DNA of 63,875 bases, filler included. It is 13 parts of 13 records of this genome, joined end to end, with 100 filler letters (N's around TTAATTAATTAA, not from the genome) between each part and the next. Parts side by side here need not be neighbours in the genome. Positions count along the whole stretch, not along the records: positions 41,478 to 47,087 come from SRR15195285_6463; 12 more parts are not named here. One strand, 5' to 3'. The position numbers and the translations under genes were made by a program. This document shows, in pieces, positions 15,784 through 54,300 of this stretch. The notes under the pieces were generated by a model. The model saw only the letters and a program-made list of their open reading frames with translations. It had not been told where the DNA came from and ran no database searches. Numbering within the stretch: the first letter of the stretch is position 1; every line of letters begins with the position of its first letter.

Positions 15784-15970
15784 TGTTCAGCCCCCTGCCA
15801 GTCGGTCACGCCAGCAGCACCATCTCGAGGACGGTCTGCGCAGGGCTCAGCTACATACAGCAGGGCAGCAGGGCCGCAGGGAGAGCCCCCATTTGAGCAT
15901 CACCGCCAGCAGCACCATCTCAAGGACGAAGCGAGCACCATCAGAATTCAGTCCTCAGTACCGTACTACA

Positions 15971-19190: not shown

Positions 19191-19632
19191 CTGCCACGCG
19201 CCACGCACAGCCAGCCACCCAGCACACACGCACACACGCACACACGCACACNNNNNNNNNNNNNNNNNNNNNNNNNNNNNNNNNNNNNNNNNNNNTTAAT
19301 TAATTAANNNNNNNNNNNNNNNNNNNNNNNNNNNNNNNNNNNNNNNNNNNNATTCTCGTGCCTCTTCCTCCTGCTCCGAAACTCAGCCGCCAGCAGTCGC
19401 GCTCAGCAATTATCAAAAATTGTTTTCTCGATCAGTTCTCACCAGTCACGAGTCACACGCACAGATTCACAGGCAGTCAGGTGGCTCGCCGGTGCTCGGC
19501 CGGTGTGCGGTGTGCGTCAGTGGGTGCCGCCGAAATCGCGAATCTAGAAATCCAACGGCCAAACGAACGGGAAAACACGGCGGCCACTGCGCTGCGCCGT
19601 AACTGTGGCGTGCGTACAACAGCGTCACCGGG

Positions 19633-21456
19633 ATGCTGCTTTCGCCTGTGTCGGACCAGCCTTCGCCACCAGCAGCGTTGAGGGCGATCGACCAGAAGCC
19701 CGAGAAGCTCGAGCTCGGGCCGACAGCACTGGAATTCGGTGATGCCGCCGGTCGGCTGTGGACGATCGTGTTCGAGCAGATCATGGCGTCCGATGCGCTC
19801 ACGATGAACGACAGGGGCGGCTCGATTCCTCTCGTCTGCCGAGAGTGGCAGCGGCTAGCAGAGTTGCACTTCTCGATCTTTCCTTTCCCGTTCGGTCCGG
19901 CTGCAGCTCTCAGCACGATGCTGGCAACGGTGAGCAACCTGGAGCCCGATCTTACAGCGCCAGAGTCCAACCCACGCAGTGGTGATAAGGCGGTCTGGTT
20001 CTACACCGGCAAGATCACCCACACACGTGGTCCACGAACCGTGGCCAGGGCAGTATGGCGGAGCACCCAGGCAAAGTCTCTGGCTGGTGCAACCCTGGTG
20101 CACTGTCCATACGGACTATCCCTCGCGGTGAGCGCTGGGCGCAGACGCGGCGTAGTAGCTGTGCTATTCGGTCGCGACTGCGTCCTGGGTGCGACCGCCC
20201 ACCCGCGTCCCTCCGTGAAATGGGACGGTGATATTCTGTCTTTTCTCTTTGCTTGCTCGCGGTTCGCCTCGTCGCTGGAGGAGACCTGGTGCGATAGGTT
20301 CGAAGCGAGCTCCATCCTCGCGGCCGTGACGCAGGCCGGACGCCAGGTGCACAGCACGCAGGCACGCAAAGCCGTAGCTGATCTGGTGGAGCGATTCGCC
20401 ACCAAAACAACGATGCTGAGCTTGCAGCAGAATCCAAATCGATTCAAACCATTGCTTCATCGTCTGCCGTTGCTAGAGGGGTCGCCAGCAGAAGAGGCCT
20501 TCGCTAATCTTGCAGCTGCGGGTGGCGCCACGGGGTCTCCACCCATCGCCACAGAGATGTGCGGGCTAGCAAGCGAACAGGTATTCCTGGCTGGGGACAG
20601 GCTGTCTGAAGCAGATGGGCCGACCCTCAGCTTTTTGGCTGCTGGAGAGTTTGTCGTTGATTGGCGGTCGGTTGGCCACAGTCACGTTCGGAAGCTCCAA
20701 GCGGACTATGCAGAAGCATCGAGAGCAACACCGCACAGCTTCACACCACCGGGCTCGCCTGGGCGATCTCGCAGAGCACACGCGTTTCAAAGCGGTCGCT
20801 GCGGTTCAATTGGTAGCTCACCACGTCTCTCAATGTCTGGCTGGTCTCTGCAAATCAACATGCATGGGCGGGAGCAGCTCAACTCGAATGGCAGGATCGA
20901 CCTCGAGGGTGATGGCGGATGGCAATGCATACTGACGTGGTACAAGAACTTCGAGAAGATCCTGTTCGATGGTATGATTCGTGACGCCAAGCTGCTTCAT
21001 GGCGCATTGTGGTACTTTATCACTGTGTTTGAAGAGATTTTTGACAGCAAAGCAATGGCGGCAAGCAGCGAGGGCAGTAAAGACTCCAAAACAACCGGCC
21101 GCTCTGGTCTAGAGTGGATGGGACAAGCGGCATCGACAACATGGGGCGCAACGCTACGGTCGATGGCGACAGCTACTGCCGTGCGATTAACACAAGCGAT
21201 CGCGGTCGATACATTGCTGAGACGTGACAAGGACGTCCGCGTTTGGTGGCAGTATGCCCTTGATAGAATGGTTGCCGTGCTGGCGGTGTCCGCAGCTGCG
21301 CAACAGGACAGTCCAAGCCGCTCACGGGGCGGTAGTGGTGGAAGCAGTCCGCGAGTCTTGACGAGCTCAGCATCTGAGGAAAGCCTGACTGTATTAGTAG
21401 AGGAAGAACAGGAGCAGCTGTTAGTCGAGGTCCGACGTAGCCTTGCCTACGAGTAG
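19633..21456 (+). CDS. Hypothetical protein with an N-terminal F-box-like motif
   Basis: 607-aa ORF. 'LWTIVFEQI...D...IPLVCREWQRLA' fits the F-box pattern; the remainder is unrecognised. Confidence 0.55.
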   Translation: MLLSPVSDQPSPPAALRAIDQKPEKLELGPTALEFGDAAGRLWTIVFEQIMASDALTMNDRGGSIPLVCREWQRLAELHFSIFPFPFGPAAALSTMLATVSNLEPDLTAPESNPRSGDKAVWFYTGKITHTRGPRTVARAVWRSTQAKSLAGATLVHCPYGLSLAVSAGRRRGVVAVLFGRDCVLGATAHPRPSVKWDGDILSFLFACSRFASSLEETWCDRFEASSILAAVTQAGRQVHSTQARKAVADLVERFATKTTMLSLQQNPNRFKPLLHRLPLLEGSPAEEAFANLAAAGGATGSPPIATEMCGLASEQVFLAGDRLSEADGPTLSFLAAGEFVVDWRSVGHSHVRKLQADYAEASRATPHSFTPPGSPGRSRRAHAFQSGRCGSIGSSPRLSMSGWSLQINMHGREQLNSNGRIDLEGDGGWQCILTWYKNFEKILFDGMIRDAKLLHGALWYFITVFEEIFDSKAMAASSEGSKDSKTTGRSGLEWMGQAASTTWGATLRSMATATAVRLTQAIAVDTLLRRDKDVRVWWQYALDRMVAVLAVSAAAQQDSPSRSRGGSGGSSPRVLTSSASEESLTVLVEEEQEQLLVEVRRSLAYE

Positions 21457-28635: not shown

Positions 28636-31600
28636 TCTTCTCGTGGTGAGATCTGATGCATACGGCTGCACCATGCTGTCGACGTTCTGGCCGACCACGA
28701 GGGGCATTTCTAAACGAGTTGCAACGAAGTCCTTCCCAGCTCCCTCGGTCTCGAGCGAGATGGCGCCAATAGTTTCCCCTGTCAGTCGCGGCCGTGGCTC
28801 CGCAGCCCACAAAAATTCAAGCGCTGACAAGTCCTGGTCCACAGCAAAGGACACTGACTGACGGCAGCGCGGGTCTGGCTGATTCAGCACAATTGAGACA
28901 GTGTGCATTCCTCTCGTGGCGAGTTCTGCCTCGCCGTAATCCCCAAGCGTGAGACAAATTGAGTTCCTGGTCTCATTGGCAGACACTAGGAACCACGGTG
29001 TCGTTAGCGGTATGTTCTCGAACTGGCCTCTAGCCTGCCGCATGCTGAAGTTCCGGAGAGCAACACTGTTAGGGCCAACCACCTGGTCACCATCAAAGAT
29101 GAAGCCAGCAAAATGGCCGGCGTTCCAAAAGTTCATTAACCTCGTCCAGTTTGTGTTGAGCAGTCTGAATATATCCACTGGTTTTCGCTCTCCTGTCAGT
29201 ACAACGTGCGCGCCACTAGCTATCGCCGAGTTGTAGGCGTGTGTTGTGTCACTTGGCGCTTTGACTGCAGCACCAGCCGATGAATTTTCGGGCTTCTGTA
29301 AATCTGTTGCATGACGAAGCAACACAGTCACGTGAATGCTCCGGGCAACAGTCGTGACAACTTCAGCTGAAGTCCCCCCAGGCTGTGTGTCGACGCGGTG
29401 TGCCAGAGGTAGACCTGTGATTGTGTCAAAGACAGAGCTTACTTGACCTTCATATAGTGGCACGCGAAGAATCAAAACGCGCCGAGATGCTGGCACATTC
29501 AGCGAGTAGGTACGGTTGCTAGCGTTACCAGAGATCTGTATACTGATGCCCGAGGGCAGCCGTAGAGATGCAGCCGTCCAGCTGGATGGAACAGCAGGGC
29601 TCCACCTCAAAGCCATCGTCGCATTCTGCCCTGAACCTGGGTTGAGGCCGAAGAGACCTCGAATTATTGCGAGGACCAGCGACCCAGCAGGGTTCCCAAA
29701 CTGTGAGTCACCAGAACCACGACCATCGAGAGACACATACTCCATCACATTGCCTGGAGCGTTCGAGCGGGCAGTTGCTGTGGCCGAGACGCCTTCTAGT
29801 AGGCTGATACCCTTGTCAATGAGCTGCCCCTGCAGCAATGCTTCCGACATCTCGGCCATAGCAACAACTGAGGGTACGCTATTACCAAACAAAATTGGCA
29901 GCATATTGCCAACTCGTAACCTCGGGTGCGGACACGACTCGTCTGCTGGCATCCATAGATTTGAGGACTCCACCGACAGCAGCGTGTGGTAAGTCATATT
30001 GGCTGGAAGCAACGAGCGAGCGTATAGCGACGGGAAAGCCAGATCTGTGTAGTACAGCACACGCTCCGTCTGTGTGAAGTTCTGAAAATCGCGGAGTGAG
30101 GCAAAACGCTGCTTGTCTGGAAGCCACAGCAGCTTGATCACCTCAGCGGCCATGTACCTCGCCTGCTGCTTGTACCGCGATGCGAGTGTGTGGTTTGGCA
30201 GCATCTGCGCCAGTCGGTCCAATACACCGGCCATGAATATCGTCGGTGATAGTGCTGCGCCGGGTAGATTCAAGTGATCCGACTGATACAGAAACTCGTT
30301 TCCACCAGACCAGAATCCAAGCATCTGATCGCCATCGGGATCTAGACCTAGCAACAGCTCATCCAACACACGGCAGCCTCCACATCGTGTCATGACATCT
30401 GTGACAAGATCGTCGTCACCAGTCGCACGCCAGTAACGATACAGAGACAACAAAAAATAAGGCAGCCCAGCCGGGCGGGTATCGGCATTGCTACCAGATG
30501 CAGTGTAGATGCTGCCGAGGCCACCTGGTCGGTGCGCAAAGAACATGATTGCGTCGCGTGCACGTTGGAGCCACTTCCCCCCGAGATGCACCGCAGCATC
30601 CACCTGGTAGTTGTTGCACCAGTAACTTTTCCAGCCCTGCAGGCCCTCAAACCAAGCCTTCCCTGGCTCATATGTACTCTCCAAGCCGGAGATCGCCGCA
30701 GCAAATGCAGAGTCAATCAGTGGCATCGGTGTGGAGATTGCGAAGCCGTCAACCTGTGGCTCACTAGCAGTGTAAGTACATCTCCCGGCACCACCGAAAC
30801 ACATCCGCATCATCCTGCTCCATGTCGCCGTTGCTCGCAGATGCACACCCATCGCTGCATCTTGTGTCACCACCGGTCCTGAGGCTGGCGTGTCAAACAG
30901 GCGCCAGTGTGAGGTATTCACTACTGTTCGTGTGACGCCGCTCGTTTCAAAGGTGAGGTTGGCCGATAGCAGCACAGACTGCCCTCCAACGGACAAAGCA
31001 TTGCCGACCTCTTGTGCCACGTTCGAAGGGAAAAAATCGGGAAAAGTGTAGCCGTTCGTTGGGCAGACGGCCATGCCCCCAAACCAGGCCTCAACATTGA
31101 CGCTCGGTGAGCTTTTGCAGGTCAGGCTGATTCCGGTGCCAGTCTCGGCCAGGTCAGCCGTCAGGTTTACCCAGAGCTCCGAAGCAGCAGGCCATGGCTG
31201 GCAGCTGTGAGTCGTGCCCAATGAGTGGTAAGTGGTCGTCATCCTTGCCCCTATCGCAGCGTCCAGCCATGTTCGGTTGAGCCCAGGGGCGCTGACAACA
31301 AAACGCAGGTCCCCGAGCTTGAACCACGGTGGATTCATATCCGCCGAGAGAGGCGACGTGCCCAGCGCAAACCAAGGCAGGTCGCCTGAAAACAAGGCCA
31401 AGGGCGACCGCCTCGAGACGGCATTAAACGCCGCGGGAGTATCGTGTGGAAGCGACTTCCCCTCGACGAAGGCGTTACTAATCGCTGCCACGTAGCGCGA
31501 GTGGGTGAAGTCGTAGGGAGCTCCCACCACCCAGTCCATCGTCGTCGATGTTGCTGCTAGCGGTGTTGCGGGCACTACATGTATGGCGTACCCAACCAGC

Positions 31601-31656
31601 TGGCCTGCGCAGCCAATGGCCGCAAGGAGCAGCAGGGCCAGGTTAACACGACTCAT
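28636..31656 (-). CDS. Secreted six-hairpin glycosidase-like protein, 3'-partial
   Basis: Signal peptide, 'YFLLSLYRYWRATGDDDLV', 'LDPDGD' and 'IIRGLFGL...WSPAVPSSW', typical of (alpha/alpha)6-barrel glycoside hydrolases. Family not assignable. Confidence 0.7.
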
Positions 31657-32572
31657 CCGTCCTCGCCGGCTAGCGTACAGTTAGTACGATCAAAGCGACG
31701 TCGTCGTACCCGGCGTACTACAGCCGTATTATACGTAGTACCGCGGTACGTACTAGGAGTACGCGTACAGGGCAACTACGCCCGGCGAACGCGTTCCTTC
31801 GTTCGCTGGTACCGGTACACGCGTACAGTACCGCTGGGTACCATATCCGCCATCCGCGCCGCTGCGTGCGTGAGTGCGCATCCATCCCGCGGCTACGAGA
31901 GTCTGCGTGTGACGGTGCCTGCATGATCGCGCCGGCGCCCGCGATGTATGCATGTGCGCGGCGCCGCCGGCGCCGCCGCGGCGGCCGGCACCGCGCCGGC
32001 CTGTGGCCGGATGACGATCACAGTGCCCAGGTCGCCACCGTGGAAGAAGAATTGGCCAAAGAAGTTAGAACCAAACGAAACGCCAAAACGACCCTTGCTC
32101 GAGGCACGTGGTGCCCCAAGGTGGGTCCACGCTGCCCAGCCCCCTCCGGCCCCCCAAGACGGTTCTGCATACTCAAACGCGAACCTCCCGACTTCGTTCG
32201 AAGCACAACGTTTGAAGCACATAGCCTTGTCCTTTGTTTGGCTGTCTAACCCCACTCAGCAGTGCTAGCCATCAGTGCTGGTATTCAAAGNNNNNNNNNN
32301 NNNNNNNNNNNNNNNNNNNNNNNNNNNNNNNNNNTTAATTAATTAANNNNNNNNNNNNNNNNNNNNNNNNNNNNNNNNNNNNNNNNNNNNGCGGAGTGAA
32401 AACAACACCAATTTCAGTAGCAATGCGCAATAACAATGCAGCGACTCGAGGTGGTCCGAGGGGAGCACTGCATTGATCAGTGAGTTTTCCGTACTCCCAA
32501 CCCACCCTCTGAGGAGTGATCACCCTCTTTTGCGTGCCCCCATACAGTTGACTGGGGGTGAGGTCCATCGCC

Positions 32573-41477: not shown

Positions 41478-41507
41478 GAGCTACGCGCAACCTCGCAACA
41501 CCTCTAC
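41478..41507 (+). repeat. 30-bp inverted repeat, left contig end
   Basis: GAGCTACGCGCAACCTCGCAACACCTCTAC is the exact reverse complement of 47058-47087. Confidence 0.97.
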
Positions 41508-43437
41508 CGACAATCGGCCGATGAAGAACTCCAAGTGCGGTTGGCCCGGGTGGGCAAAACGGAGTACGACAGCCGAGGCGTGGTGCGAGAGCGGTTGCGG
41601 TGTTGTTCAGGGTAAAGAGTGCTGCGAGGCGTCGTGCTGCGGGCCGTCCGCCACGCTTGCGTGCCTTCCTTTCGACCTCAAGACACGGCACCTGGTTGTC
41701 GTCTCGGACACACCAGATGCACGCCGACAGCTGTCGCACAATGATGATGGTGACGACGGATCCCATATCGCACTCGAGGTCGGTGACGAGGTGACGGTAG
41801 GCTGCGAACATGGATACGTCAGTCCGGCGAACCTGGAGTACCTGAACGGCCTCGACGTGCTAAAATGCACCTCAGCAGAAACAGGCCCAGCGACGACGCT
41901 CACGTGCGTGCCGCCCGTAGTGAAAGTGTCAACCGTCAACAGCGGCAGCCAGCCACCCGCGGGCGGCGACGGTCTCGGGAGCGGAAGCAGCCATGTTGGT
42001 GTTGGCCTGCTGACGCTCGCAGGCTTCTGCGCGGCAGGCTTCGCGACAGTCATCAGGAAGCGCAAGCATATGGAGCTGGGGCTGCAAGTGGGGTTGCTGA
42101 TGCAATCAGACAGCTCAGACAGCTCAGGCAGCTCATCACGGCGCGGATCATGGCTCGGATCATTGTCGGCATCATGGGACGGCGGCATGCCTCAATTAGC
42201 TTTTGGCGGGGCTGCTGCTCCTGAAGTGAAACAGGAGATGGAAATGGGCATGGCGGCTGGATCCATGACGCAGGAGATGGGGAAGGACATGATGGCTGGA
42301 TCCATCCAAGAAGAGGCGATGAAAAGCTTGGGCACTGCATCGTGCTCGCTTGTGATCCCCGGGGAATTCCCGCCGGCTCCGGTAGTCGAGTCCGCAGAGG
42401 GCCAAAGTGATCCAGCAACGCACTTGTATGGTGATCACATTTGGATACCTGAGAGTCCTAGCAGTGACGAAGCCACTGACGTCTCCGCGGACGGCGGCTT
42501 CGACACCCCGTGGGAGGTCGAGGCCAGCGAGTTTTCGACGATAGAGCCGTTCAGGTACGCCGGCGCACACCTCAGCTTCTGCGCACAATGCCGAGCCCTA
42601 CCCTACAGTCCAATCAACCACTAACCGATGGGCGCCTACTTTTGCAGTGATTCTGCGGAGGATTCGTCGGATGCGGAAGCATGGCTACCGGCGGCCCCAA
42701 TTGAGCAGCCGCTAGTAGCTGATTTGCTTGGCCCTGGAGCTCTTACGGACGCTGAGATAAGCTCATTGCCGCTGCCGCCGGAGGTGGATGTTCGCATTGA
42801 CACAGCGGAAGCTCTGGTAGGCTGGGACGGCCAGCAGTGTCTGCCCGTCGGAGCCCAGGAGCATTTGCCCGTCGTGCCCGATCCTCAGAAGAAGGCGGCT
42901 CGGAAGAAGTCTCAGGGAAGTCGCGGGGGTGGGGCCGGTGGCGGTAGCAGTAGTTCCGCGCCTAGTCGGCCCGTTCGGCGGCATACTATGGTTGCATGCC
43001 AGGTAGGCCTACGACCGCACCCAAATTCCTGAGGCTCGTATTCCCCTTGGATTGGATTGCGATTTTGAATCACATTTTGGCCGATTGGCTGGCTGATGTT
43101 CGATAATGTAGATGCCAGGATGCACATACCAGGGGTCAACTCGCGCGCACTTGGTGCGGCACATGCGATCGCATAATGGAAGTCGACCATTCGTCTGCCC
43201 AGAACCAGGCTGTGGGTATGCCGCTTCACAGAAGGAGCACCTGGCGACACATTCCCTCAAGCATTCGGACGTGAAGCCGTTCAAATGCGTTGTCTGCGGT
43301 GCGTGGCGCCATTTGTGCCACTGCAGCGTCACACTCAAGTTGACTGGCATGTGTCGTTGCTGCCGATAGGCTTTGCCACGAAGCGAAAGGAGCACCTTAC
43401 TCGACATATGCGAAGGCATGATCGAGATGCGAAATGA
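41479..43437 (+). CDS. Membrane-anchored C2H2 zinc-finger protein (Cys-rich/Sushi-like, TM, acidic region, C2H2 x3), probably 5'-partial
   Basis: Introns 42555-42647, 43003-43111 and 43299-43369 join the TM exon in frame to fingers CQMPGC..HMRSH, CPEPGC..HSLKH and CVVC..HMRRH. Confidence 0.8.
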
Positions 43438-43564
43438 AAATACGAATGAATAATCTGTAGGTTAACTCCGTGGCACGTTGATCCCCTCTTGGCCATGAAC
43501 TCTTCAGCACTGCAGCAGTGGAGAATGTAGCCTCCGATACCAAGTATTCACTGCACCAGGTAGC

Positions 43565-45372
43565 TCATTGCTTGCCACCAACAGCCGCCACAGATGTGTT
43601 CAGGACCGGGAAGACCATCTCGTCCACGCCGCGGCGAGGCTCATGGCGGTCCGGCTGTTTGTGATGCAGAGACGTATCGCGGCTCACATCCCAGCGTAAT
43701 AGCTTGCCGTACTCCGTCAGCAGCTCACTGCATTTGTCCCAGTCACAATCTAGTCAGATGCGATATGCCATGTTGCAGCCAGTAGTAGGTGTCTGGGTGT
43801 AGTCTTGTGAGCAGTTCTTGCAATCGCTTACCGCCAATATTCCTTGACGTCCTCGTTCCGAAGATGGTCGCGGATGAGCTCAAAGCCACTTCGAGCAATC
43901 TTTCGAACCGCAGCCTCGTTCCTCGGGTCCATCGCCCATCGAATCTTCAGCTCGGCATCCACCATATCATCACGGAGAGGGATGTAGTGTACCCATGGCT
44001 TCAGCGCGGGGTAAAAGAACTCGAGCCAGCTGTTTGCATCATCACCGACGTTGAAAACCAAGCTCTCGCACAGAAAAAGATGTTTGAACCGAAAGCTTGC
44101 TGCGACACCTGTAGTCACGGCAAACAAATCGATTTGCATGTTTTGTTGGCAGTGTCGACGACAGGGGACCACACTAGTAGCGGTCCAGCAGTGGCTGCTG
44201 TAACCAAGATGGACAGCATTGCCGTGAAATATCGGCAAGCTGCCTGATGTTTTTCTAAAATCTAGATGTGGCTGTTTGCCTGTCAGCTTGCCACATGCGT
44301 GGCTATTGCTTACCACGAGCGTTAAGAAGGTACTTGTAATCGCAATGATCTTCGAGTTCCACCGGTGGGACAGGCTCTACGCCAGGAAGACCTGATCAAG
44401 TGCAGGGCTCACAGTCTTTGGTAAGTATGATCGTGGAAAAAAGAGAACGAAACAACCAAAATTGGGAGCAGAAGTTCACGCACCGGACTCTTTTTTGTAG
44501 TTAGGAGTGTAAGCAGCGTCCATCAGGTCAGGGTGCTCATTCGAAAATCGGACGATAGCGTCCCGTTGTGGCGTGGTGCGAGCGCCGCGAAAGAACGCAA
44601 GGTCCTTCCGACCGTCCCATGGCTTGGTCGCACCCGCAGCGATGATGCTGTCGCGCTTGATGTCAAAACGGCCAAGGCCGCGTGGGTACAATGAGATAGC
44701 AGGCCCTCCGGACCAGAAAGTCCATGCGGGATACATGATATCGCCGTATTGACCGACTACTGAGAAGGAAAACACGGGAAGCTGTGCGCTCGCCGCATCT
44801 CCCTTGTAGACCAGCGGATTGTCTGCAGGATTGAGTAGCAGTTCCATGTCAGGCAACTTGGCGCCGCCGCGTGCAGCGTCTTCTGCAAGCAGCCAGTGCA
44901 GAAAGTACTCGATGCCGCGGCAGCGTGGCTCGAACATGCACTTCTCATCTCGATAGAGCTGTCCAGCGACAATCTGGTAGTGGCTTAGTTTGCGCATGCC
45001 AAACTTCTGCTGCGCCGCAAGGAACTGATCACGCGTGATGCCGCCGCCACCCATGCGCCATCGTTGGAGGTCGCTATGAATACGAGCGCCATAGCACTCG
45101 TGCGCCGTCGTGCAAGGTATGTAATCACGCAAGGCAGTTGCCACGGCGAGTGAATACTCGTGAGACACGTCGCCATCGGCAGGCAGTGCCTCGCACAGGG
45201 AGCAGTCTCGGTTGGCATATCCACCACACTTCGACTTGGCTACAGACCAGCCAAACCCCGCAGCAATGCAGGCATCGCAGCTGCTGTACGCATCGAACTT
45301 CCCGCCGAGCGCGCTGGGAAGCACCAGCACGAGCATCAGCATCAGTGCTGACAGCCACTGCTCGATGATCAT
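43565..45372 (-). CDS. POGLUT1: Protein O-glucosyltransferase POGLUT1/Rumi-like (GT90, CAP10 domain), four exons
   Basis: Signal peptide, 'CMFEPRCRGIEYFL', 'DIMYPAWTFWSGGPAISLYPRGLGRFD', 'FFRGART', 'EDHCDYKYLLNARG|VAASFRFKHLFLC' and 'WLEFFYPALKPWVHYIP'. Confidence 0.9.
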
Positions 45373-46009
45373 CGCCTACTACGCTCTGTATTAGTACATT
45401 ATCTTAGAACCGGTAGCACTATATACTATTGCGTGCAGCGAGCCTGGCCGTGTCGACAATGTAGAGCCTAGCTCTCCCGCGAGCTGCAGTGAGGCTTGAG
45501 GCTGGGCGGCTGGGCGGCACAAGACGGTTGACGCGTGCCGGCGCCTCCGACTCACGCAGTCGTTGTCAGTGGCGGCCTACTGCGCAGCCTGCGCGTGGCT
45601 GCCGTGGCGGGCACCGGCGTGCGTCAGCATGCGCACGCGGCATGCGCAGGGAGCGCGATACGATCGCGCGACGACCGCTCCCGCCCGCATCATCGGGTTA
45701 TCACAGCGTGATTATCGGTACATGTGTGTGTACACACAATTCATCAACTTTGTCATCCTCTCCTGGGAGCATGCCAATCTCCTGGAGTTTGCGCCACAAT
45801 TCGACGTCGTGGTTCTCGGAAGCTGAGGCTGGAGAAGGGCCGCCGAACTGGCGGCCATTCCTCGTGTGCTGGGGCGACATCAGCATGTCGGACATCGGGT
45901 CGCCCAGGAGGGTGTCGGGTGTCCTGCGCCGGAGAGTAGTACTGTAGTGATGCAATGGGGAGCAGTAGTGATGCAATGGATGGACCACAACGTGTTGCAT
46001 TGAAAATAG

Positions 46010-47087
46010 TTAGCACTTGGACAGTGCGTAGCGCTGGCCCTTCATAGTTTTAATGGTCATCCTGCCATATGGGTCTACATCTGGGAGTCCACGTCCTATT
46101 CCGTCTGTCACCAGGACCTGTCCTGGGACTTGGTCGCCACGACTGCTGTCGTGTTGGACGCAAACCTTCGGCCACGGCTTGGCAAGTACAAGCTCCGCCG
46201 CGGCCAAAGATGTCACGCGAATAGGAGAGACCACGTCTCCATGATCCCAGCTCGCGCTGACAAGGAACGCCTTTGCTGACCGGAGCTGCGTGAAACTGAC
46301 GCTTGAGTCCACCGGCCACGCAGGGAAAAGTACCAGCGCACTATCGATCGTCTGGAGCAACATGAGGTGGATGGCTTGGATCGCGCCAATATCTTCGAGG
46401 CCTCCGCCGTTGTCATTCTCCCATCCGTTGTTTGTGCCGTTGTTGGCGCCACTGATCAAGGGAATTGCCCGCGTAAAGTTCTCTAGAGTCGCTCGCGCCA
46501 TCTGTCGATTAGCGACTTTTGCAGCAGGAGGCCAAGCTAGGCAGAATCCTGCACCCCCTGGAGCAAAGCTGTCTCCATCGTTCTCCATTTGCACAGTATT
46601 CCGTGCAACTTCGAGCAGCTGAGGGTCAGATGCAAGATCAATCACTTCAGCTGGATGCATGGCCGCGAAATGAGCTATTGGGTAGCCAGAGTCAGCTCCA
46701 GGATCGGGCATCATGCTGGAGTTCACACCGACGCCTTCAGCAAAGATTGTACCGTAGCGAGATGGTTGCTGAGGGAACTTTGCCAAGCCTCGGAGCATCC
46801 GCTGCCATTCTGCACGATCCTGAGCCGTCACTGATTCATCCAATTGCAGATGAAGCCGTAGTGCTTTTGCATGTATGGAGTCCGGTTCAGTAAGTGTGAG
46901 CAGCTTAGTGTAGGCCATACGAGCGTACGCAAGATCTTGGTGTGCGTTGTGCAGGTTGCCCGATGGAGAGCAGATCTCCTGCGCACACGTGTATGGAATG
47001 TCGTACACGACGCTGGCACCATCAAAGTCGCCACTTGCATTGTCAGCAGAACTACTAGTAGAGGTGTTGCGAGGTTGCGCGTAGCTC
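46010..47087 (-). CDS. GH95-like six-hairpin glycoside hydrolase C-terminal part, 5'-partial
   Basis: 'HFAAMHP', 'AIHLMLLQ....LVLFPAWP....SFTQLRSAKAFLVSASW..G.V' resemble the GH95-type C-terminus. Confidence 0.7.
47058..47087 (-). repeat. 30-bp inverted repeat, right contig end
   Basis: Exact reverse complement of 41478-41507. Confidence 0.97.
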
Positions 47088-47424
47088 NNNNNNNNNNNNN
47101 NNNNNNNNNNNNNNNNNNNNNNNNNNNNNNNTTAATTAATTAANNNNNNNNNNNNNNNNNNNNNNNNNNNNNNNNNNNNNNNNNNNNCAATCTGGCCACT
47201 TTTCAGTGCTGCACCCCGATACGGACAGTGCTGCATGCACTGCAGCTGCTGGTCGCCGTGGGCTGATGCCCGCGTGAAGCTGAACGAGATATGTTTAGCC
47301 TGCAGGTGTAGCGCGTGTAGCCCTCGCTGCTTCGTTCTGAGGTAGCACGCCCAGTTCTAGCGCGTGCTCGGGACACGTCCATCCGCCTCGTCCACGCGCG
47401 CATACGCGTGTACGTCGGACGTGG

Positions 47425-48762
47425 ATGCCAGTGAGGCAGCTGGAAGGGGACCATGCCAACTTAACGCCACCTGCTAGTGGTGGCTCTGCCTCGACGGTGG
47501 TTGCTGCGGAACGAGGCCGATACGCGACCTGTGCGCAGAACGTGCTCTGCTGCTGCTGCACTGATGTTTTGGGAGGGCTGGCCGGATACGTCCTCTGCCT
47601 GTACGGGCTGGTCATACTTGCGCACCACTTTCCGACCGTGGGCTTGCCGCTGCTGGCGGTGTTGCCACCGCTGCTTCTGCTAGCGATGTGCACTCTCCGC
47701 CACCTGGACGGGCTGAACGGGTGCCAGCTGGTTCTCACGACAGCTTGCGCGGTGCTGTGGATGTCGCCGCTGCTGCTACTGCAGTGGGCACTAGCAACCA
47801 CACACGTCCCGACCATGCTGTTCGCACTAGACTCCCGTTGCGCCACGTGCATCGAAGCCCACGGTGGCTACGACGCGAAGTACTTGGGCCTTTGCAGCTG
47901 TTGGGGCAAAACTTTTGTCCAAGCTTTCGTGCTCTCGGCGTTTCCAGAGGAACTGCTGAAGCTTGTGGCTGTGCTCGGCGTCGCGAATCGTACTCACATC
48001 TCGAGGCCAGGGGCTCTCGTCATGTACGCCATGGGCGCCTCAGCTGGCTTTGCTGCCGTAGAGAACATCCTGTACGTGATCGGAGCGAGCACACAGAAAG
48101 ACGGCGACACCGGCGATGATAGTGCGACCACCACAGCCTTGGCGAGGGCGGCTTTGAGCATCCCTTTGCACCTAACATGCGGGGCGCTGATTGGAGTGGG
48201 CCTGGCACGCTGGCGATGGCTGAGCAAGCGCGGCACCGAGTCCCGACATCTTTGGACTCTCGTCAATAGAGCGGAGGAGGGCTCCGTAGAACCAGCACAC
48301 GATGCGCCGGCTGTTGCTGGCCTGTGCCGTTGTTGCACTGGCGCCTGCTACGGTGGGTTGCCTTGTCGTGCTGGACTAACCATCGTCATACCAGCGATGC
48401 TCATCCATACAGTGTATGATGGCGTTTTGATGGCACCATACAGACTTTACCAGGTCGAATTGGGCTCGCCGAGCCACATACAACAGATGTATATTGGGTC
48501 AGGAGTGACAATTATGGTCGGCTTGCTGGGAGTGTACATCCTCTCGTTGCCACTCAACGCTCCAGGCGTGGCGGAGCAGGACGATACGCTGGAGCCGGAT
48601 GAAGAACGCCGAGTAGGACGCTGGCCTGCTCGCCGGCGGGAGGGGGTGAATCTTGCCGACTGCGTGTATGCGTCTATCTTATGTTGCCTGGAGGATGATT
48701 TCTACGAAGAGGAAGACGCTCGGTTGCAAGACGAACGTGCGAGGGCACTGTCGCATCCGTGA
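47425..48762 (+). CDS. PrsW-family intramembrane protease
   Basis: Multipass protein with the four PrsW motifs: 'PEELLK', 'GFAAVEN', 'PLHLTCG' and 'HTVYD'. Confidence 0.88.
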   Translation: MPVRQLEGDHANLTPPASGGSASTVVAAERGRYATCAQNVLCCCCTDVLGGLAGYVLCLYGLVILAHHFPTVGLPLLAVLPPLLLLAMCTLRHLDGLNGCQLVLTTACAVLWMSPLLLLQWALATTHVPTMLFALDSRCATCIEAHGGYDAKYLGLCSCWGKTFVQAFVLSAFPEELLKLVAVLGVANRTHISRPGALVMYAMGASAGFAAVENILYVIGASTQKDGDTGDDSATTTALARAALSIPLHLTCGALIGVGLARWRWLSKRGTESRHLWTLVNRAEEGSVEPAHDAPAVAGLCRCCTGACYGGLPCRAGLTIVIPAMLIHTVYDGVLMAPYRLYQVELGSPSHIQQMYIGSGVTIMVGLLGVYILSLPLNAPGVAEQDDTLEPDEERRVGRWPARRREGVNLADCVYASILCCLEDDFYEEEDARLQDERARALSHP

Positions 48763-51166: not shown

Positions 51167-51358
51167 ATCCGCGCGCCGCCGCCGCCGCCGCCGCTCGCGC
51201 GCCGCGGCGCGCGGTAGAGCATCATGCACAGACAGGCACGCACCGCCTGGCTGGCACCCCCATGCAGGGTGGGGTACGGTGCCGAATGACGGGCTGCTCA
51301 TGAAGAATACGTAGCAGTAGAGCTGTAGAGCCCCAGGCCTTGGCTGACGGAATTGGAC

Positions 51359-54300
51359 ATGGACCAGGAATGGCTGGGGTCGTTTCCTGTCGTAGCTGGG
51401 GAGTCCGAGGAGTGGCCGGACGCACTCCGCGAGAGCACGGAACAATTAGAGCAGTGGCCCGAAGATGCCGAGGAGGACTTCGACGAGGAGGATTTTTCAT
51501 CGCCGGCGGACACTAATCAGCCGGCTGCTGCAGCAGTAGACAGCAACTCAGCGGCTGCATTTTCCCCGGGCGTAGACGTACAATCCGAGGGCCTCGGTGG
51601 CGGGGATTGCCTACCGGTTCGTGCGCCGGCCGTTGGCAATCCAAAGCGCGTGCGATTGGAGGCTCCCGCACGCAGCGCAACCGGTCTCTCGGCTACCCTT
51701 GGTGGGTCCACACTTGCGACGACAGTACCGGGCAGAGGACAGGGGTCAACTGCGCAAGGGCCAACTTCTGGCTCGGCGGTAGGTCTCGAATTTGAAGAGG
51801 CCTGGCGGCTTCTGACTGACTCGGCGGTGACGTGTGACGGCCAGCGGCCGTACTTTCTCCTAGCAGGCGGCCAAACTGTGGACGCTTGCCGCGGAAGGGT
51901 GTTCAAAGAGCTGTGCTATCAATCGGGCGGCAAGAGACGGCGCAAGGGGACGGATAAGTGGGTGTGCAAAATGGGGCGGAGAGGCTGCACAGAAGCGCGA
52001 ATGCAGGGAAGCACGGACGTGGTTCGACGTACCTATGGCATTCTCACGCTGATGGACACGTACGGCGTAGAGATCGGGAAGGCGACTTATCATCAGTACG
52101 AGATTCGGAGCCCGGACGATTCGCGTGAAATGCATCTAAGGCATGAATATCGGCTATATCACTTGCTTGGGTCCATAACCCCACAAGACGCGAGCAAGGC
52201 TGCCTCTTCGAGAGAAACTACCCAGTGTGGTCTACTACGACTACAGCTTGACTCCGACTCCGACTCCGGCAAGTGGATGCAGTTTGAGGACGCGAATCAT
52301 TCTATAATGGGATCTATTGAGCAGAATAGACACGGATTCGCCACTTTTAACACACCCGCAGGAGACTTTGCTGAGTGGCATCCGCGTGCAGCAAATGAAG
52401 CGCCACTAGAGGAAGGTGATGTTGTGGGGTTCATCTCTGCCTCACCGAATGACTGTAGGCAGCAAATAACGCGGCGCACCAATGGAGCTTCTGCACTTGG
52501 CGTTGTCACGCATCGAGCGGCTGTGTCTGGGTCAGCGCCACCTGCTCACGAGAGGCACTTGTTCGAAACTATCGCGTACACAGGGCGTGTACCGATCAAA
52601 GTCCGCGGGACTGTCACAGCAGGGAGCCTCGTGGGACCATCGGGTTACGAGGATGGCACAGCCATGATGCTTCTTGCGTGCTGCACAGGACCCGCAGTCG
52701 GTCGTATAGAGGCGAGCTCAGATGCAGTACACGAAACAGCAGAAAACTCGGGTTTGGCAATGGAGCTGCTAGAACACCGCAAATCGTCACTCGCTACACC
52801 GGAAGAATGGCGCAGTGTCGACTGTGTTGTCGTCAACCCTGCGCACACGATGCACAACAGTTGGACGGCACGTCAGCGATGCTTGGTCGCGCTGTTGTTG
52901 CTGCTTGCATGCGCCTTCTTTGCCCACATATACACTACTACAACAACTGCCCATGCTTTGGTGTATTGCCCAGCCGCTGAGGTCGACATGCTCTCCTGGC
53001 ACGAGTCAACACTGACATGCTATGGATGCGATTCTTCTCGGAACACGTTGTTGCACATCCCACGGACTCTAGTGTCTACCCAGCCATGGCGTATCGACTG
53101 CCCAGACAGTAACCTCATTGGTAGTGTATACCGCACATGTACGACAGCCGGTTGGGGACCCTTGCACGGCAGCTGTAAGCGGAAACGCTGCCCAAACACA
53201 ACGTTTCATCTCGACGCAGGTGCGTCACATCACTGCATCATACGAAAACAAACTATGGTAGCTTGACCAAGATGGCTTGTCGAACAGATGAATTGTTGGT
53301 CGACAACGGTCAGACCACGATCAGGATCGATGAAGCGATCGAGGGTACTACTACGCGCCTGATCCCGTGCAAGACGCATGCCCCAATCCAGTACTATAAT
53401 GGGAATCTCAGAGTTCACTGCCCAGCTGGTGCGTCCTGGATGTCAGACAGACTAGAGCTACAAGTTGAGATATCGAACGGCCTTGCTGCCGCAGGTAGTG
53501 ATCAGTGGGAGATCAACAACACCTGCATCAAAAAAGAATGTCCTGCAGAGAACGTCTCCTGGCCGTCCGGCCCGGATCCTGAAAGCACACCGGCCTTTAC
53601 AACAAGCATGCCAGTCACCAGTATGATGGCCGGCGGACGGATGTTTCCGTGCTGTCAGGTACTACCTTCACACGCTTGAAATTCATGAACGGGTTGTCAG
53701 CCAAGGGGCTCAGTGTAGATCTAGTCCGTTTTGACCTAGTGGAATTGTTGTGTAAGTTGTGGATGGCTCTGTTGGGCAGGGCGCCGTATCTATGACAGGC
53801 AGCTGCAGTGCAGCAACCTACAGCGGTGCCGAAGACGACAGGTGGCTTGGGACGTATGCGAGTATAGTGTGTGCTGACGGCCAGTGGCGCACTTCAATTG
53901 CTCCGACGTACAACCTCATTGGAGACTGCAACGCGGCAGTGAGATGCTGTCCGAGCAGCTTGGTTCGGGTTCGTGCGAACTCGGCACTGGACGTCGATGC
54001 AGCAGTGACATGGCAGCAGTTTCGATCGCTGCCACAAGCGAATTGGCTGCCACAGTCCGGTGTTCTCACGGCCGTCGGCGTGTCTATCGGCAACGCAGAT
54101 TGGCTTCAGGTTGCTGCGTCACCACCTATTGAAAGTCATCACAGGCCATATGTACTGGACTCGACCCTGCCAAACAGCATGTTCAGCCCAGATCAAATAG
54201 TGACGCCCAAGATGACCTCCACTGGCCGCTCCGCTGCTGCATTTGCCAAGGTCGCGTGCCGTCAGCTAGGTTTTCGATATGCTCCACTTGTGACAACCTG

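What the first reader, a model, noticed from the sequence alone, without database searches (positions are those of the whole stretch)
41479..43437. Notch-like architecture: Cys-rich ectodomain, single TM, acidic region and three C2H2 zinc fingers
Seen: a Sushi-like segment (VTVGCEHGY...LKCT..LTCVP), a Gly/Ala-rich TM at 41995-42054 ending in RKRK, an acidic/aromatic stretch, a basic KKAARKK motif and three linked C2H2 fingers. The fingers appear only after splicing three canonical introns, so the ORF track hides the fusion. Known: type-I proteins with small-residue TMs and a basic stop-transfer are typical substrates of regulated intramembrane proteolysis. Inference: this is a receptor-transcription factor released by cleavage, the second membrane-tethered factor in 64 kb of unlinked contigs, suggesting the lineage uses this signalling mode widely.
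Basis: partly seen in the sequence, partly recalled or inferred. Interest (0 to 1): 0.8.

Follow-up and report, generated by a model that had tools for sequence, protein, structure and literature searches.

The report
Membrane-anchored zinc-finger transcription factor, marine protist
An uncultured marine protist makes one spliced messenger RNA for a single-pass membrane protein with a cysteine-rich outer part and, on the inner side, a complete three-zinc-finger transcription factor; this would let a surface signal reach genes directly, but nobody has yet shown that the factor is cut loose.

Summary
Metatranscriptome contigs from three studies remove the predicted GT..AG introns. One 1295-nt RNA contig runs from the Sushi-like segment through the membrane helix into fingers 1-3, with introns 1 and 2 removed. 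The ectodomain, helix and C2H2 fingers are therefore one gene product, 561 codons as far as the contig goes.

The gene is cut at its 5' end by the contig edge. Homologues show what is missing: a signal-peptide-like start and a second cysteine-rich module. This supports a type I topology.

The helix plus KRK is the best-conserved stretch. The tail is acidic, 281 aa with net charge -23. A basic motif sits 34 aa before fingers that match WT1, KLF, CTCF and EGR1.

"Sushi-like" is supported only weakly, and only at fold level. Pfam finds nothing there.

The family is tiny: 8 hits among 1.84 billion representatives. Two are named Picozoa; the rest are unnamed metagenome calls.

Not shown: cleavage, any Notch kinship, conservation of the finger fusion in homologues, and the claim that the lineage uses this mode widely.

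Verdict: a real, new type I variant of membrane-tethered transcription factors. The release mechanism is inferred only.

The parts
41479..42554 (+). Exon 1, 5'-truncated by the contig end. It encodes Cys-rich module 2, the Sushi-like module, the stalk, the membrane helix and the first 163 aa of the acidic tail.
   Evidence: The ORF is open to the contig start. RNA contigs are colinear with the DNA over 41618-42231 and 41802-42551. Protein-level conservation with P0006-P0009 is 37-59%.
41536..41679 (+). Cysteine-rich module (pattern C-x16-C-x3-C-x8-CC-x3-CC-x8-C), of no known family. Homologues carry it twice.
   Evidence: Alignments. 18 of 48 columns are invariant in 4 sequences. No Pfam or PDB sequence match.
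41677..41913 (+). Sushi/CCP-like four-cysteine beta module. It is divergent and lacks the family's Trp.
   Evidence: 36 of 79 columns invariant. AF2 model pLDDT 60.9. Foldseek best E 0.041, with all listed rows being CCP-bearing proteins. VIA best Z 5.5. Pfam gives no hit.
41914..41994 (+). Ser/Gly-rich juxtamembrane stalk ending in a conserved His.
   Evidence: 4 of 27 columns invariant. H172 is invariant in A1 and A2.
41995..42066 (+). Single membrane helix (41995-42054) plus the RKRK stop-transfer (42055-42066).
   Evidence: Kyte-Doolittle 19-residue mean 1.93; homologues 1.91-2.32. 13 of 24 columns are invariant, the highest share of any region.
42555..42647 (+). Intron 1, 93 nt, GT..AG, with a CTAAC branch-point-like motif.
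   Evidence: Skipped in 3 of 3 RNA runs and 0 of 1 DNA run. Homologue ORF calls read through it and stop at the same kind of place.
42648..43002 (+). Exon 2: the rest of the acidic tail, a Gly/Ser tract and the first Cys of finger 1.
42889..42909 (+). Basic KKAARKK motif, a candidate nuclear localisation signal. It lies 247 aa after the helix and 34 aa before finger 1.
   Evidence: The function is inferred.
43003..43111 (+). Intron 2, 109 nt, GT..AG. It splits finger 1.
   Evidence: Skipped in 2 of 3 RNA runs.
43112..43298 (+). Exon 3: the rest of finger 1 (to 43174), finger 2 (43196-43264) and the start of finger 3 (from 43286).
   Evidence: Pfam zf-H2C2_2 1.1e-10 and zf-C2H2 2.2e-6. 131 PDB sequences at E<=0.001, among them WT1, KLF4/5, CTCF, EGR1 and YY1.
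43299..43369 (+). Intron 3, 71 nt, GT..AG. It splits finger 3.
   Evidence: Skipped in 1 of 3 RNA runs. One contig of another RNA run enters it unspliced.
43370..43437 (+). Exon 4: the rest of finger 3 (to 43419), a short basic end and the TGA stop.

Best explanation
The gene encodes a type I single-pass membrane protein. From outside to inside it has a signal peptide, two cysteine-rich modules and a Sushi-like module. Then come a short Ser/Gly stalk, one strongly conserved membrane helix with a KRK stop-transfer, and a roughly 280-aa disordered acidic/aromatic region that looks like an activation domain. It ends with a basic nuclear-localisation-like motif and three tandem DNA-binding-type C2H2 fingers.

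Shown here: one spliced transcript carries all parts from the Sushi-like module to finger 3, and the family is conserved in several marine protists.

Inferred: the protein is held at the plasma or ER membrane as a dormant transcription factor. A cue sensed by the ectodomain leads to proteolysis. The most likely route is ectodomain shedding in the stalk followed by a presenilin/gamma-secretase-type cut near the cytosolic end of the helix. This frees the activation domain, localisation signal and fingers as one piece that enters the nucleus and binds DNA.
For: - One transcript: X12 record 13 (1295 nt) covers 41802-42551, 42645-43000 and 43110-43275. Intron 1 is skipped in 3 of 3 RNA runs from 3 studies and in 0 of 1 DNA run.
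- The frame is intact: 1686 nt with a single terminal stop.
- A single helix of membrane grade (KD 1.93) exists.
- Topology: homologues reaching further upstream have a basic-then-hydrophobic N-terminus. The 10-aa KD windows are 2.25-2.83 in 5 of 5, and P0029 shows the same by eye.
- The RNA loose end before 41503 stays in frame and reads a five-residue motif (GRCAP) that P0007 has in the linker between its two Cys modules.
- The helix plus KRK is the most conserved part: 13 of 24 columns invariant in 4 sequences, against 15% in the stalk and in the tail. That is more than a passive anchor would need.
- The cytosolic part is a complete transcription-factor module. The tail has net charge -23 with conserved aromatic/acidic motifs, KKAARKK follows, and the fingers have H-x7-C linkers of the TGEKP-linker length. 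These fingers match DNA-bound WT1, KLF4, CTCF, EGR1 and YY1.
- From established knowledge (recalled): among intramembrane proteases, only the presenilin type releases the cytosolic domain of type I proteins.
Against: - No cleavage product, localisation or DNA binding has been observed.
- The window's own N-terminus is missing. No trained signal-peptide or topology predictor was available, only hydropathy.
- Conservation of the finger fusion in homologues could not be tested. All 8 database relatives are ORF-style calls that end in intron 1 or earlier. No homologue DNA reaching downstream could be fetched, and queries with exons 2 and 3 found only the gene itself or nothing.
- Whether the organism has presenilin is unknown, since no genome is held.
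- The layout of a long disordered linker plus a basic motif fits uncleaved import to the inner nuclear membrane equally well.
Confidence: 0.5

Rival explanations
1. The protein is an uncleaved inner-nuclear-membrane DNA tether. It is inserted in the ER, and its basic motif plus the roughly 250-aa disordered linker carry the finger domain through the nuclear pore while the helix slides along the pore membrane. The fingers then bind chromatin from the inner nuclear membrane, and the ectodomain sits in the perinuclear lumen.
For: - The layout is helix, then 247 aa of low-complexity acidic linker, then the basic motif, then the folded domain.
- For yeast Heh1/Heh2, a localisation signal plus an intrinsically disordered linker were reported as required and sufficient for inner-membrane accumulation of a membrane protein (PMC4695851, abstract and passages; PMC4569319, listing abstract).
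Against: - KKAARKK is a short monopartite-type motif, not shown to resemble the Heh2 signal.
- A conserved two-module Cys-rich plus Sushi-like ectodomain looks like a ligand-binding surface or lumen sensor rather than a perinuclear spacer.
- The conserved helix and KRK suggest interaction within the membrane.
- Nothing was tested.
Confidence: 0.2
2. The protein is a membrane receptor whose fingers do not act on DNA. The C2H2 array binds RNA, protein or lipid at the membrane, and the protein is never a transcription factor.
For: - C2H2 fingers can bind RNA or proteins (recalled knowledge).
- No DNA-binding test exists for this protein.
That is a lead only.
Against: - Three tandem fingers have canonical spacing and linker length.
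- The best PDB matches are DNA-bound arrays.
- An acidic/aromatic region and a basic motif lie directly upstream.
Confidence: 0.12
3. The soluble factor is made by alternative transcription or splicing. In that case the membrane-anchored form is a minor or decoy isoform, and the active factor is a helix-less transcript.
For: - Plant membrane-bound factors are sometimes freed by alternative splicing that omits the helix (PMC9237531, listing abstract).
- X17 record 20 shows an unspliced intron 3.
- Contigs cannot give isoform proportions.
Against: - Every RNA contig that crosses exon 1 is colinear with the DNA.
- The one long contig joins the helix to the fingers.
- No contig starts inside introns 1 or 2.
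- Exon 3 alone would lack the first Cys of finger 1.
Confidence: 0.08
4. The fusion is an assembly or annotation artefact, with two genes joined by mis-assembly.
For: - The contig comes from a binned metagenome.
- Its first 25 nt disagree with an RNA contig and with two independent protein calls.
Against: - Spliced RNA contigs from three studies bridge the parts.
- A separate 2785-nt contig appears to carry both the exon 1 and exon 2 ORF calls: both list one contig of that length, although no contig id was shown.
- Finger 1 is completed only by joining exons 2 and 3.
Confidence: 0.02

Closest known systems
Notch receptors (animals)
   Same: - Type I orientation with a cysteine-rich modular ectodomain.
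- One helix rich in small residues, followed by a basic stop-transfer.
- A cytosolic part that would act in the nucleus after release. The Notch mechanism is recalled knowledge.
   Different: - No EGF, LNR/NRR, RAM, ankyrin or PEST families are found.
- The Notch intracellular domain is a co-activator without a DNA-binding domain, whereas here the tail carries its own three-finger DNA-binding array.
- There is no sequence relationship.
ATF6 / CREB3 (OASIS) / SREBP, and plant NAC and bZIP membrane-bound factors
   Same: A complete transcription factor is tethered to a membrane by a helix, and the known members are activated by regulated proteolysis (PMC9237531 and PMC1802569, listing abstracts).
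   Different: - As I recall, those are type II, tail-anchored or hairpin proteins with the DNA-binding domain N-terminal to the helix, cut by S1P/S2P, rhomboid-like or other proteases.
- Here the DNA-binding domain is C-terminal to the helix of a signal-peptide-bearing protein with a folded ectodomain.
In-silico plant C2H2 membrane-bound factors
   Same: C2H2 fingers plus a predicted helix in one protein. 70 such proteins were counted among 1,089 predicted membrane-bound factors in 14 plants (PMC5694209, abstract and passages).
   Different: - Those are computational predictions, with the helix reported mostly near one terminus.
- The text I read describes no signal peptide or Cys-rich/Sushi-like ectodomain.
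Heh1/Heh2 (LEM2/MAN1) inner nuclear membrane proteins
   Same: A localisation signal plus a long disordered linker next to a membrane helix. The extralumenal domain acts on chromatin (PMC4695851).
   Different: - Different domains (LEM/MAN1), two helices and no ectodomain modules.
- The orientation of signal, linker and helix is mirrored.
Complement-control-protein (Sushi, PF00084) modules
   Same: - Four cysteines and a G-x-x-V-x-V-x-C-x-x-G-Y core.
- The predicted fold matches CCP modules best: Foldseek E 0.041; VIA Z 5.5, rmsd 2.9 over 71 residues.
   Different: - No Pfam hit in 0 of 9 family members.
- There is no Trp between Cys 3 and Cys 4, and the spacings Cys 1-2 and Cys 2-3 are longer.
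- The model confidence is only 60.9.

Membership tests
Notch family | EGF-like repeats and LNR/NRR in the ectodomain | tested here: not met
   Pfam at E<=10 gives 0 families on exon 1. None of the 9 family members matches at E<=1.
Notch family | RAM and ankyrin repeats in the intracellular domain | tested here: not met
   Pfam finds no family on the tail in exon 1 or exon 2. The C-terminus is C2H2 fingers instead.
Notch family | S2 shedding followed by a gamma-secretase S3 cut | not testable with these tools
   This needs biochemistry. No genome is held in which to look for presenilin.
C2H2 zinc finger (PF00096), DNA-binding tandem array | C-x2-4-C-x12-H-x3-5-H, repeated with short linkers | tested here: met
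   Three fingers are present after splicing. zf-C2H2 scores 28.2 bits against a cut-off of 25.2, and zf-H2C2_2 41.7 against 40. 131 PDB matches at E<=0.001.
C2H2 zinc finger (PF00096), DNA-binding tandem array | Sequence-specific DNA binding | not testable with these tools
   This needs a binding assay.
Sushi / CCP (PF00084) | Match to the family profile | tested here: not met
   0 families at E<=10. 0 of 9 members hit Sushi at E<=1. A profile search against PDB sequences gave no CCP hit.
Sushi / CCP (PF00084) | CCP beta-sandwich fold with 1-3 and 2-4 disulfides | tested here: inconclusive
   The model has pLDDT 60.9. Foldseek gives 0 matches at E<=0.001, but every listed row is a CCP-bearing protein. 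VIA-wide ranks 1-16 are CCP-bearing with best Z 5.5, below the tool's caution line of 8. Atlas leads score 0.80.
Sushi / CCP (PF00084) | Conserved Trp between Cys 3 and Cys 4 | tested here: not met
   No Trp lies between C130 and C143 in the window protein or in the aligned homologues.
Membrane-bound transcription factors activated by regulated proteolysis (functional class) | Membrane helix and DNA-binding domain in one polypeptide | tested here: met
   One RNA contig joins them. Helix KD is 1.93, and the fingers are supported.
Membrane-bound transcription factors activated by regulated proteolysis (functional class) | DNA-binding domain on the cytosolic side | tested here: inconclusive
   Inferred from signal-like N-termini in 5 of 5 scored homologues, P0029 by eye, and the positive-inside KRK. 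The window's own N-terminus is missing and no trained predictor was run.
Membrane-bound transcription factors activated by regulated proteolysis (functional class) | Proteolytic release and nuclear entry | not testable with these tools
   There are no data. This step is inference only.
Heh2-type active import to the inner nuclear membrane | Localisation signal plus a long disordered linker adjacent to a membrane helix | tested here: inconclusive
   A basic motif lies 247 aa from the helix across a low-complexity acidic region. Likeness to the Heh2 signal and importin binding were not tested.

The most novel reading that the evidence does not exclude
Picozoa-like marine protists carry a convergent, Notch-independent 'one-polypeptide' pathway. 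A surface receptor built from a new cysteine-rich module and a Sushi-like module is shed and then cut within its conserved helix. This directly releases a complete C2H2 transcription factor (activation domain, localisation signal and DNA-binding fingers). It would be the first type I receptor whose released tail is itself the DNA-binding factor.
Probability: 0.35. Interest if true: 0.8.

Novelty: new variant of a known kind. Interest (0 to 1): 0.62.

Why it matters
Membrane-tethered transcription factors are a known signalling shortcut. To my knowledge, the well-studied ones carry the DNA-binding domain N-terminal to the helix (type II or tail-anchored). The type I example, Notch, releases only a co-activator.

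Here a receptor-like type I protein has a complete DNA-binding factor as its tail. If it is cleaved, it would be the shortest possible path from outside the cell to a promoter in a eukaryote.

It comes from a little-known, uncultured marine lineage. Two relatives are named Picozoa, which the listed abstracts describe as enigmatic heterotrophic picoeukaryotes (PMC8599508, PMC11373171, listing abstracts).

The finding also gives a concrete, expressible test substrate for asking whether presenilin-type cleavage predates animal Notch signalling. In addition, it defines a new extracellular cysteine-rich module.

Four full-text searches turned up no description of this layout. Only the papers cited here were opened, subscription-only papers are not covered, and supplements were closed.

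Tried and rejected
- Own-genome search: no genome is held.
- Testing the finger fusion in homologues:
  - The metagenome scan returned only L001. It is 1273 nt and covers the 5' part of a P0006-like gene, with nothing downstream.
  - The viral contigs and genome-contig scans returned 0 relatives.
  - The exon 3 protein query found no candidate.
  - The exon 2 query found only the gene's own ORF call, P0015.
  - Cluster listings held no longer, spliced members. The longest is 502 aa.
- P0014's C-terminus looks by eye like the start of a finger (A-C-x3-G-C-x3-G-x5-L, as in the window's finger 1). However, BLASTP against the exon 2 ORF found nothing (best E 5). I treat it as a hint only.
- AF2 of ectodomain plus helix with 9 sequences gave pLDDT 46.5, which is unusable.
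- A PDB sequence-profile search gave one chance-level hit at E 0.77 in the low-complexity tail.
- Atlas feature search: best score 0.80, which the tool says shuffled proteins reach a third of the time.
- Rfam on the window: 0 matches.
- No paralogue exists in the window.
- Earlier notes of this scan hold nothing on this genome or sequence.
- RNA parts without contig cover (for example X17 at 42103-42414) carry no weight.
- Rejected reading, rhomboid, S2P or SPP as the releasing protease. As I recall, S2P and SPP act on type II helices, and a rhomboid cut would leave the tail anchored.
- Rejected reading, Notch homology (see the membership test).
Full report
**Setting.** The window is 13 unlinked contigs joined by N spacers (24 N-runs of 44). 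The finding lies at the very start of the contig 41478-47087. No whole genome is held. The stretch occurs in seawater and marine metagenomes and metatranscriptomes, and GC is about 57%.

**Gene model.**
- Reading the DNA and the stop-to-stop frames gives:
  - exon 1: 41479-42554
  - intron 1: 42555-42647
  - exon 2: 42648-43002
  - intron 2: 43003-43111
  - exon 3: 43112-43298
  - intron 3: 43299-43369
  - exon 4: 43370-43437, ending in TGA
- Joined in a script, this is 1686 nt, in frame, with one terminal stop, giving 561 residues.
- Fingers 1 and 3 are each completed only across an intron. A C2H2 regex on the unspliced six frames finds finger 2 alone.

**Transcript evidence.**
- I laid contigs of three metatranscriptome runs (X11, X12, X17; three studies) and of the best DNA holder, X1.
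- Intron 1 is skipped in 3 of 3 RNA runs, intron 2 in 2 of 3, and intron 3 in 1 of 3. All have GT..AG ends. The DNA run shows none of these joints.
- X12 record 13 (1295 nt) covers 41802-42551, 42645-43000 and 43110-43275. One assembled RNA molecule therefore links the Sushi-like segment, the membrane helix at 41995-42054, the whole tail and the fingers up to the start of finger 3.
- X11 record 11 joins exons 2, 3 and 4.
- Against a fully clean picture, X17 record 20 (43150-43342) runs 44 nt into intron 3. That could be unspliced RNA or DNA carry-over. Contigs also cannot give isoform proportions.

**The 5' end.**
- The ORF is open to the first base of the contig, so the N-terminus is not in the window.
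- X11 record 7 fits from 41503 onward and has 114 further letters upstream that do not fit the window's first 25 nt.
- The 30 letters shown stay in frame. They encode a five-residue motif (GRCAP) that the homologue P0007 has in the linker between its two Cys-rich modules.
- Two independent ORF calls of the same gene (P0005, P0016) also begin with residues that agree with the RNA contig and not with the window's first 25 nt.
- So 41478-41502 is a contig-end artefact or a variant, and the gene continues upstream.

**Relatives.**
- A word-indexed search with exon 1 found 5 proteins at E<=0.01 among 5081 candidates. One is the gene itself; the four relatives are 59, 43, 40 and 37% identical.
- A profile of these, scored against all 1.84 billion representatives with no length limit, found 8 proteins at E<=0.001, with lengths of 157-502 aa.
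- None is a spliced full-length form. Of the nine relatives read, at least five (P0005, P0006, P0008, P0009, P0011) run on past the exon 1 end into tails that look like intron read-through. These begin with the residues encoded by the 5' splice site, and three of them end in His-stop, as the window's CACTAAC branch-point-like motif would give.
- This suggests that intron 1 is shared, so downstream exons should exist in the relatives. It does not show what those exons encode.
- Of the 10 clusters looked up, 2 carry public names, both from Picozoa single-cell genomes in EukProt. The rest are unnamed metagenome calls.
- The family, and probably the window's organism, is therefore picozoan or close to it. 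This rests on only two named relatives at 25-34% identity.

**Topology.**
- Each family member has one membrane-grade hydrophobic segment: a 19-residue Kyte-Doolittle mean of 1.93 in the window and 1.91-2.32 in five relatives. The next-best windows are at most 1.44.
- The five relatives whose calls reach beyond the Cys modules (P0006, P0007, P0008, P0012, P0013) all start with a hydrophobic 10-residue window of 2.25-2.83, preceded by K/R in 4 of 5. P0029 shows the same by eye.
- Together with the KRK after the helix, this gives a type I layout with the ectodomain outside or in the lumen and the fingers in the cytosol.
- This is inference from hydropathy. No trained predictor was available.

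**Ectodomain.**
- Relatives carry two copies of a cysteine-rich module (C-x16-C-x3-C-x8-CC-x3-CC-x8-C). The window keeps only the second copy.
- The module matches no Pfam family and no PDB sequence.
At sequence level this fails:
  - Pfam gives 0 families at E<=10.
  - 0 of 9 members hit Sushi.
  - The Trp typical of the family is absent.
- At fold level there is weak support:
  - A model of this module alone reached pLDDT 60.9 and pTM 0.47.
  - Foldseek found no match at E<=0.001 (best 0.041), yet every listed row is a protein built of CCP modules: beta-2-glycoprotein I, factor H and relatives, factor XIII B, CD46, CR2, MASP, C1r/C1s, PAPP-A and E-selectin. My recognition of these as CCP-bearing is from knowledge.
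  - The Foldseek-independent VIA scan ranks CCP-bearing chains 1-16. The best is Z 5.5, rmsd 2.9 over 71 residues, which is below the tool's caution line of 8.
  - The Atlas leads (0.80) also include Sushi clusters but are at chance level.
- I call the module Sushi-like in fold, probable but not established, and not a demonstrated family member.

**Helix and tail.**
- In the four sequences that span all regions, invariant columns are:
  - 13 of 24 in the helix plus KRK
  - 36 of 79 in the Sushi-like module
  - 18 of 48 in the Cys module
  - 4 of 27 in the stalk
  - 24 of 162 in the exon 1 tail
- A helix that is the best-conserved part suggests contacts inside the membrane, with a protease or a partner helix.
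- The 281-residue tail has net charge -23, 36% Ser+Gly+Ala, and conserved acidic/aromatic motifs.
- KKAARKK lies 247 residues after the helix and 34 before finger 1.
- The fingers have canonical spacing and seven-residue H-to-C linkers. They match 131 PDB sequences at E<=0.001, including WT1, KLF4/5, CTCF, GLI, YY1 and EGR1.
- The cytosolic part thus has everything a soluble activator needs.

**Mechanism.**
- What is shown is the architecture on one transcript and its family.
- What is inferred is that the factor is dormant at a membrane and is freed by proteolysis.
- From established knowledge (recalled): type I proteins are released on the cytosolic side by presenilin-type cleavage after ectodomain shedding. 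S2P and SPP act on type II helices, and rhomboids free the outer part.
- I therefore favour shedding in the poorly conserved Ser/Gly stalk followed by a gamma-secretase-type cut near the conserved end of the helix (confidence 0.5).
- The main rival (0.2) is uncleaved import to the inner nuclear membrane. A localisation signal plus a disordered linker next to a helix is required and sufficient for that in yeast Heh1/Heh2 (PMC4695851, abstract and passages).
- Lesser rivals are non-DNA roles of the fingers (0.12), a helix-less alternative transcript (0.08) and assembly artefact (0.02).

**Comparison and novelty.**
- It works like Notch in layout but is not a Notch. No EGF, LNR or ankyrin family is found, and its tail binds DNA itself.
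- As I recall, it differs from ATF6, CREB3, SREBP and the plant NAC and bZIP factors in orientation.
- Plant censuses list 70 C2H2 proteins with predicted helices (PMC5694209, abstract and passages). The text I read describes none with this ectodomain. The supplementary lists were closed.
- Four full-text searches found no description of a type I Cys-rich/Sushi plus C2H2 protein.
- I rate it a new variant of a known kind.

- I could not find the 'second membrane-tethered factor'.
- Pfam on 30 of the 39 ORFs of 230 aa or more gave no DNA-binding family.
- There is no other complete C2H2 pattern in the window and no paralogue.
- Nine large ORFs and all small or spliced genes were left unscanned, so this is not a disproof. 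A census needs the genome.

Noticed in passing
window 43828-45375 (-): The convergent neighbour is a Glyco_transf_90 gene (Pfam E 2.8e-35), the family that I recall includes the Notch O-glucosyltransferase POGLUT1/Rumi. An RNA contig loose end at 43728 reads the letters found at about 43833, which suggests a roughly 104-nt intron in this minus-strand gene and 3' ends that nearly abut the finger gene. No functional link is shown.
   Followed up: partly
window 47341-48762 (+), next contig: This ORF has a PrsW-family intramembrane metalloprotease domain (E 6.7e-22). As I recall, in Bacillus PrsW starts regulated proteolysis of an anti-sigma factor. Whether this contig is eukaryotic or a bacterial stray in the bin was not checked.
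   Followed up: no
window 41478-41502: The first 25 nt of the contig disagree with an RNA contig (114-nt loose end before 41503) and with two ORF calls of the same gene from other assemblies. This is likely a contig-end artefact or a variant.
   Followed up: partly
L001 443-445 and 1258-1260: The metagenome copy of the P0006-like gene has TAG where P0006 has Glu at two places. This breaks the ORF into the 73-aa and 247-aa calls listed. The cause may be G-to-T errors, a variant or a pseudogene.
   Followed up: no
window 43299-43342: One contig of RNA run X17 (record 20) continues unspliced into intron 3. This could be intron retention or DNA in the library.
   Followed up: no
window 10054-15786 (-), 28636-31680 (-), 19603-21456 (+), 51329-53266 (+): Very long intron-free ORFs of 1910, 1015, 617 and 645 aa have no Pfam family at E<=0.001.
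   Followed up: no
window 42555-42647 and the tails of P0006, P0008, P0009, P0011: Read-through of intron 1 looks alike in relatives: the same first residues from the 5' splice site, a similar middle in P0008 and P0011, and a His-stop end in the window's gene, P0009 and P0011 that fits a CACTAAC branch point. The intron's position, and partly its sequence, seems conserved.
   Followed up: partly
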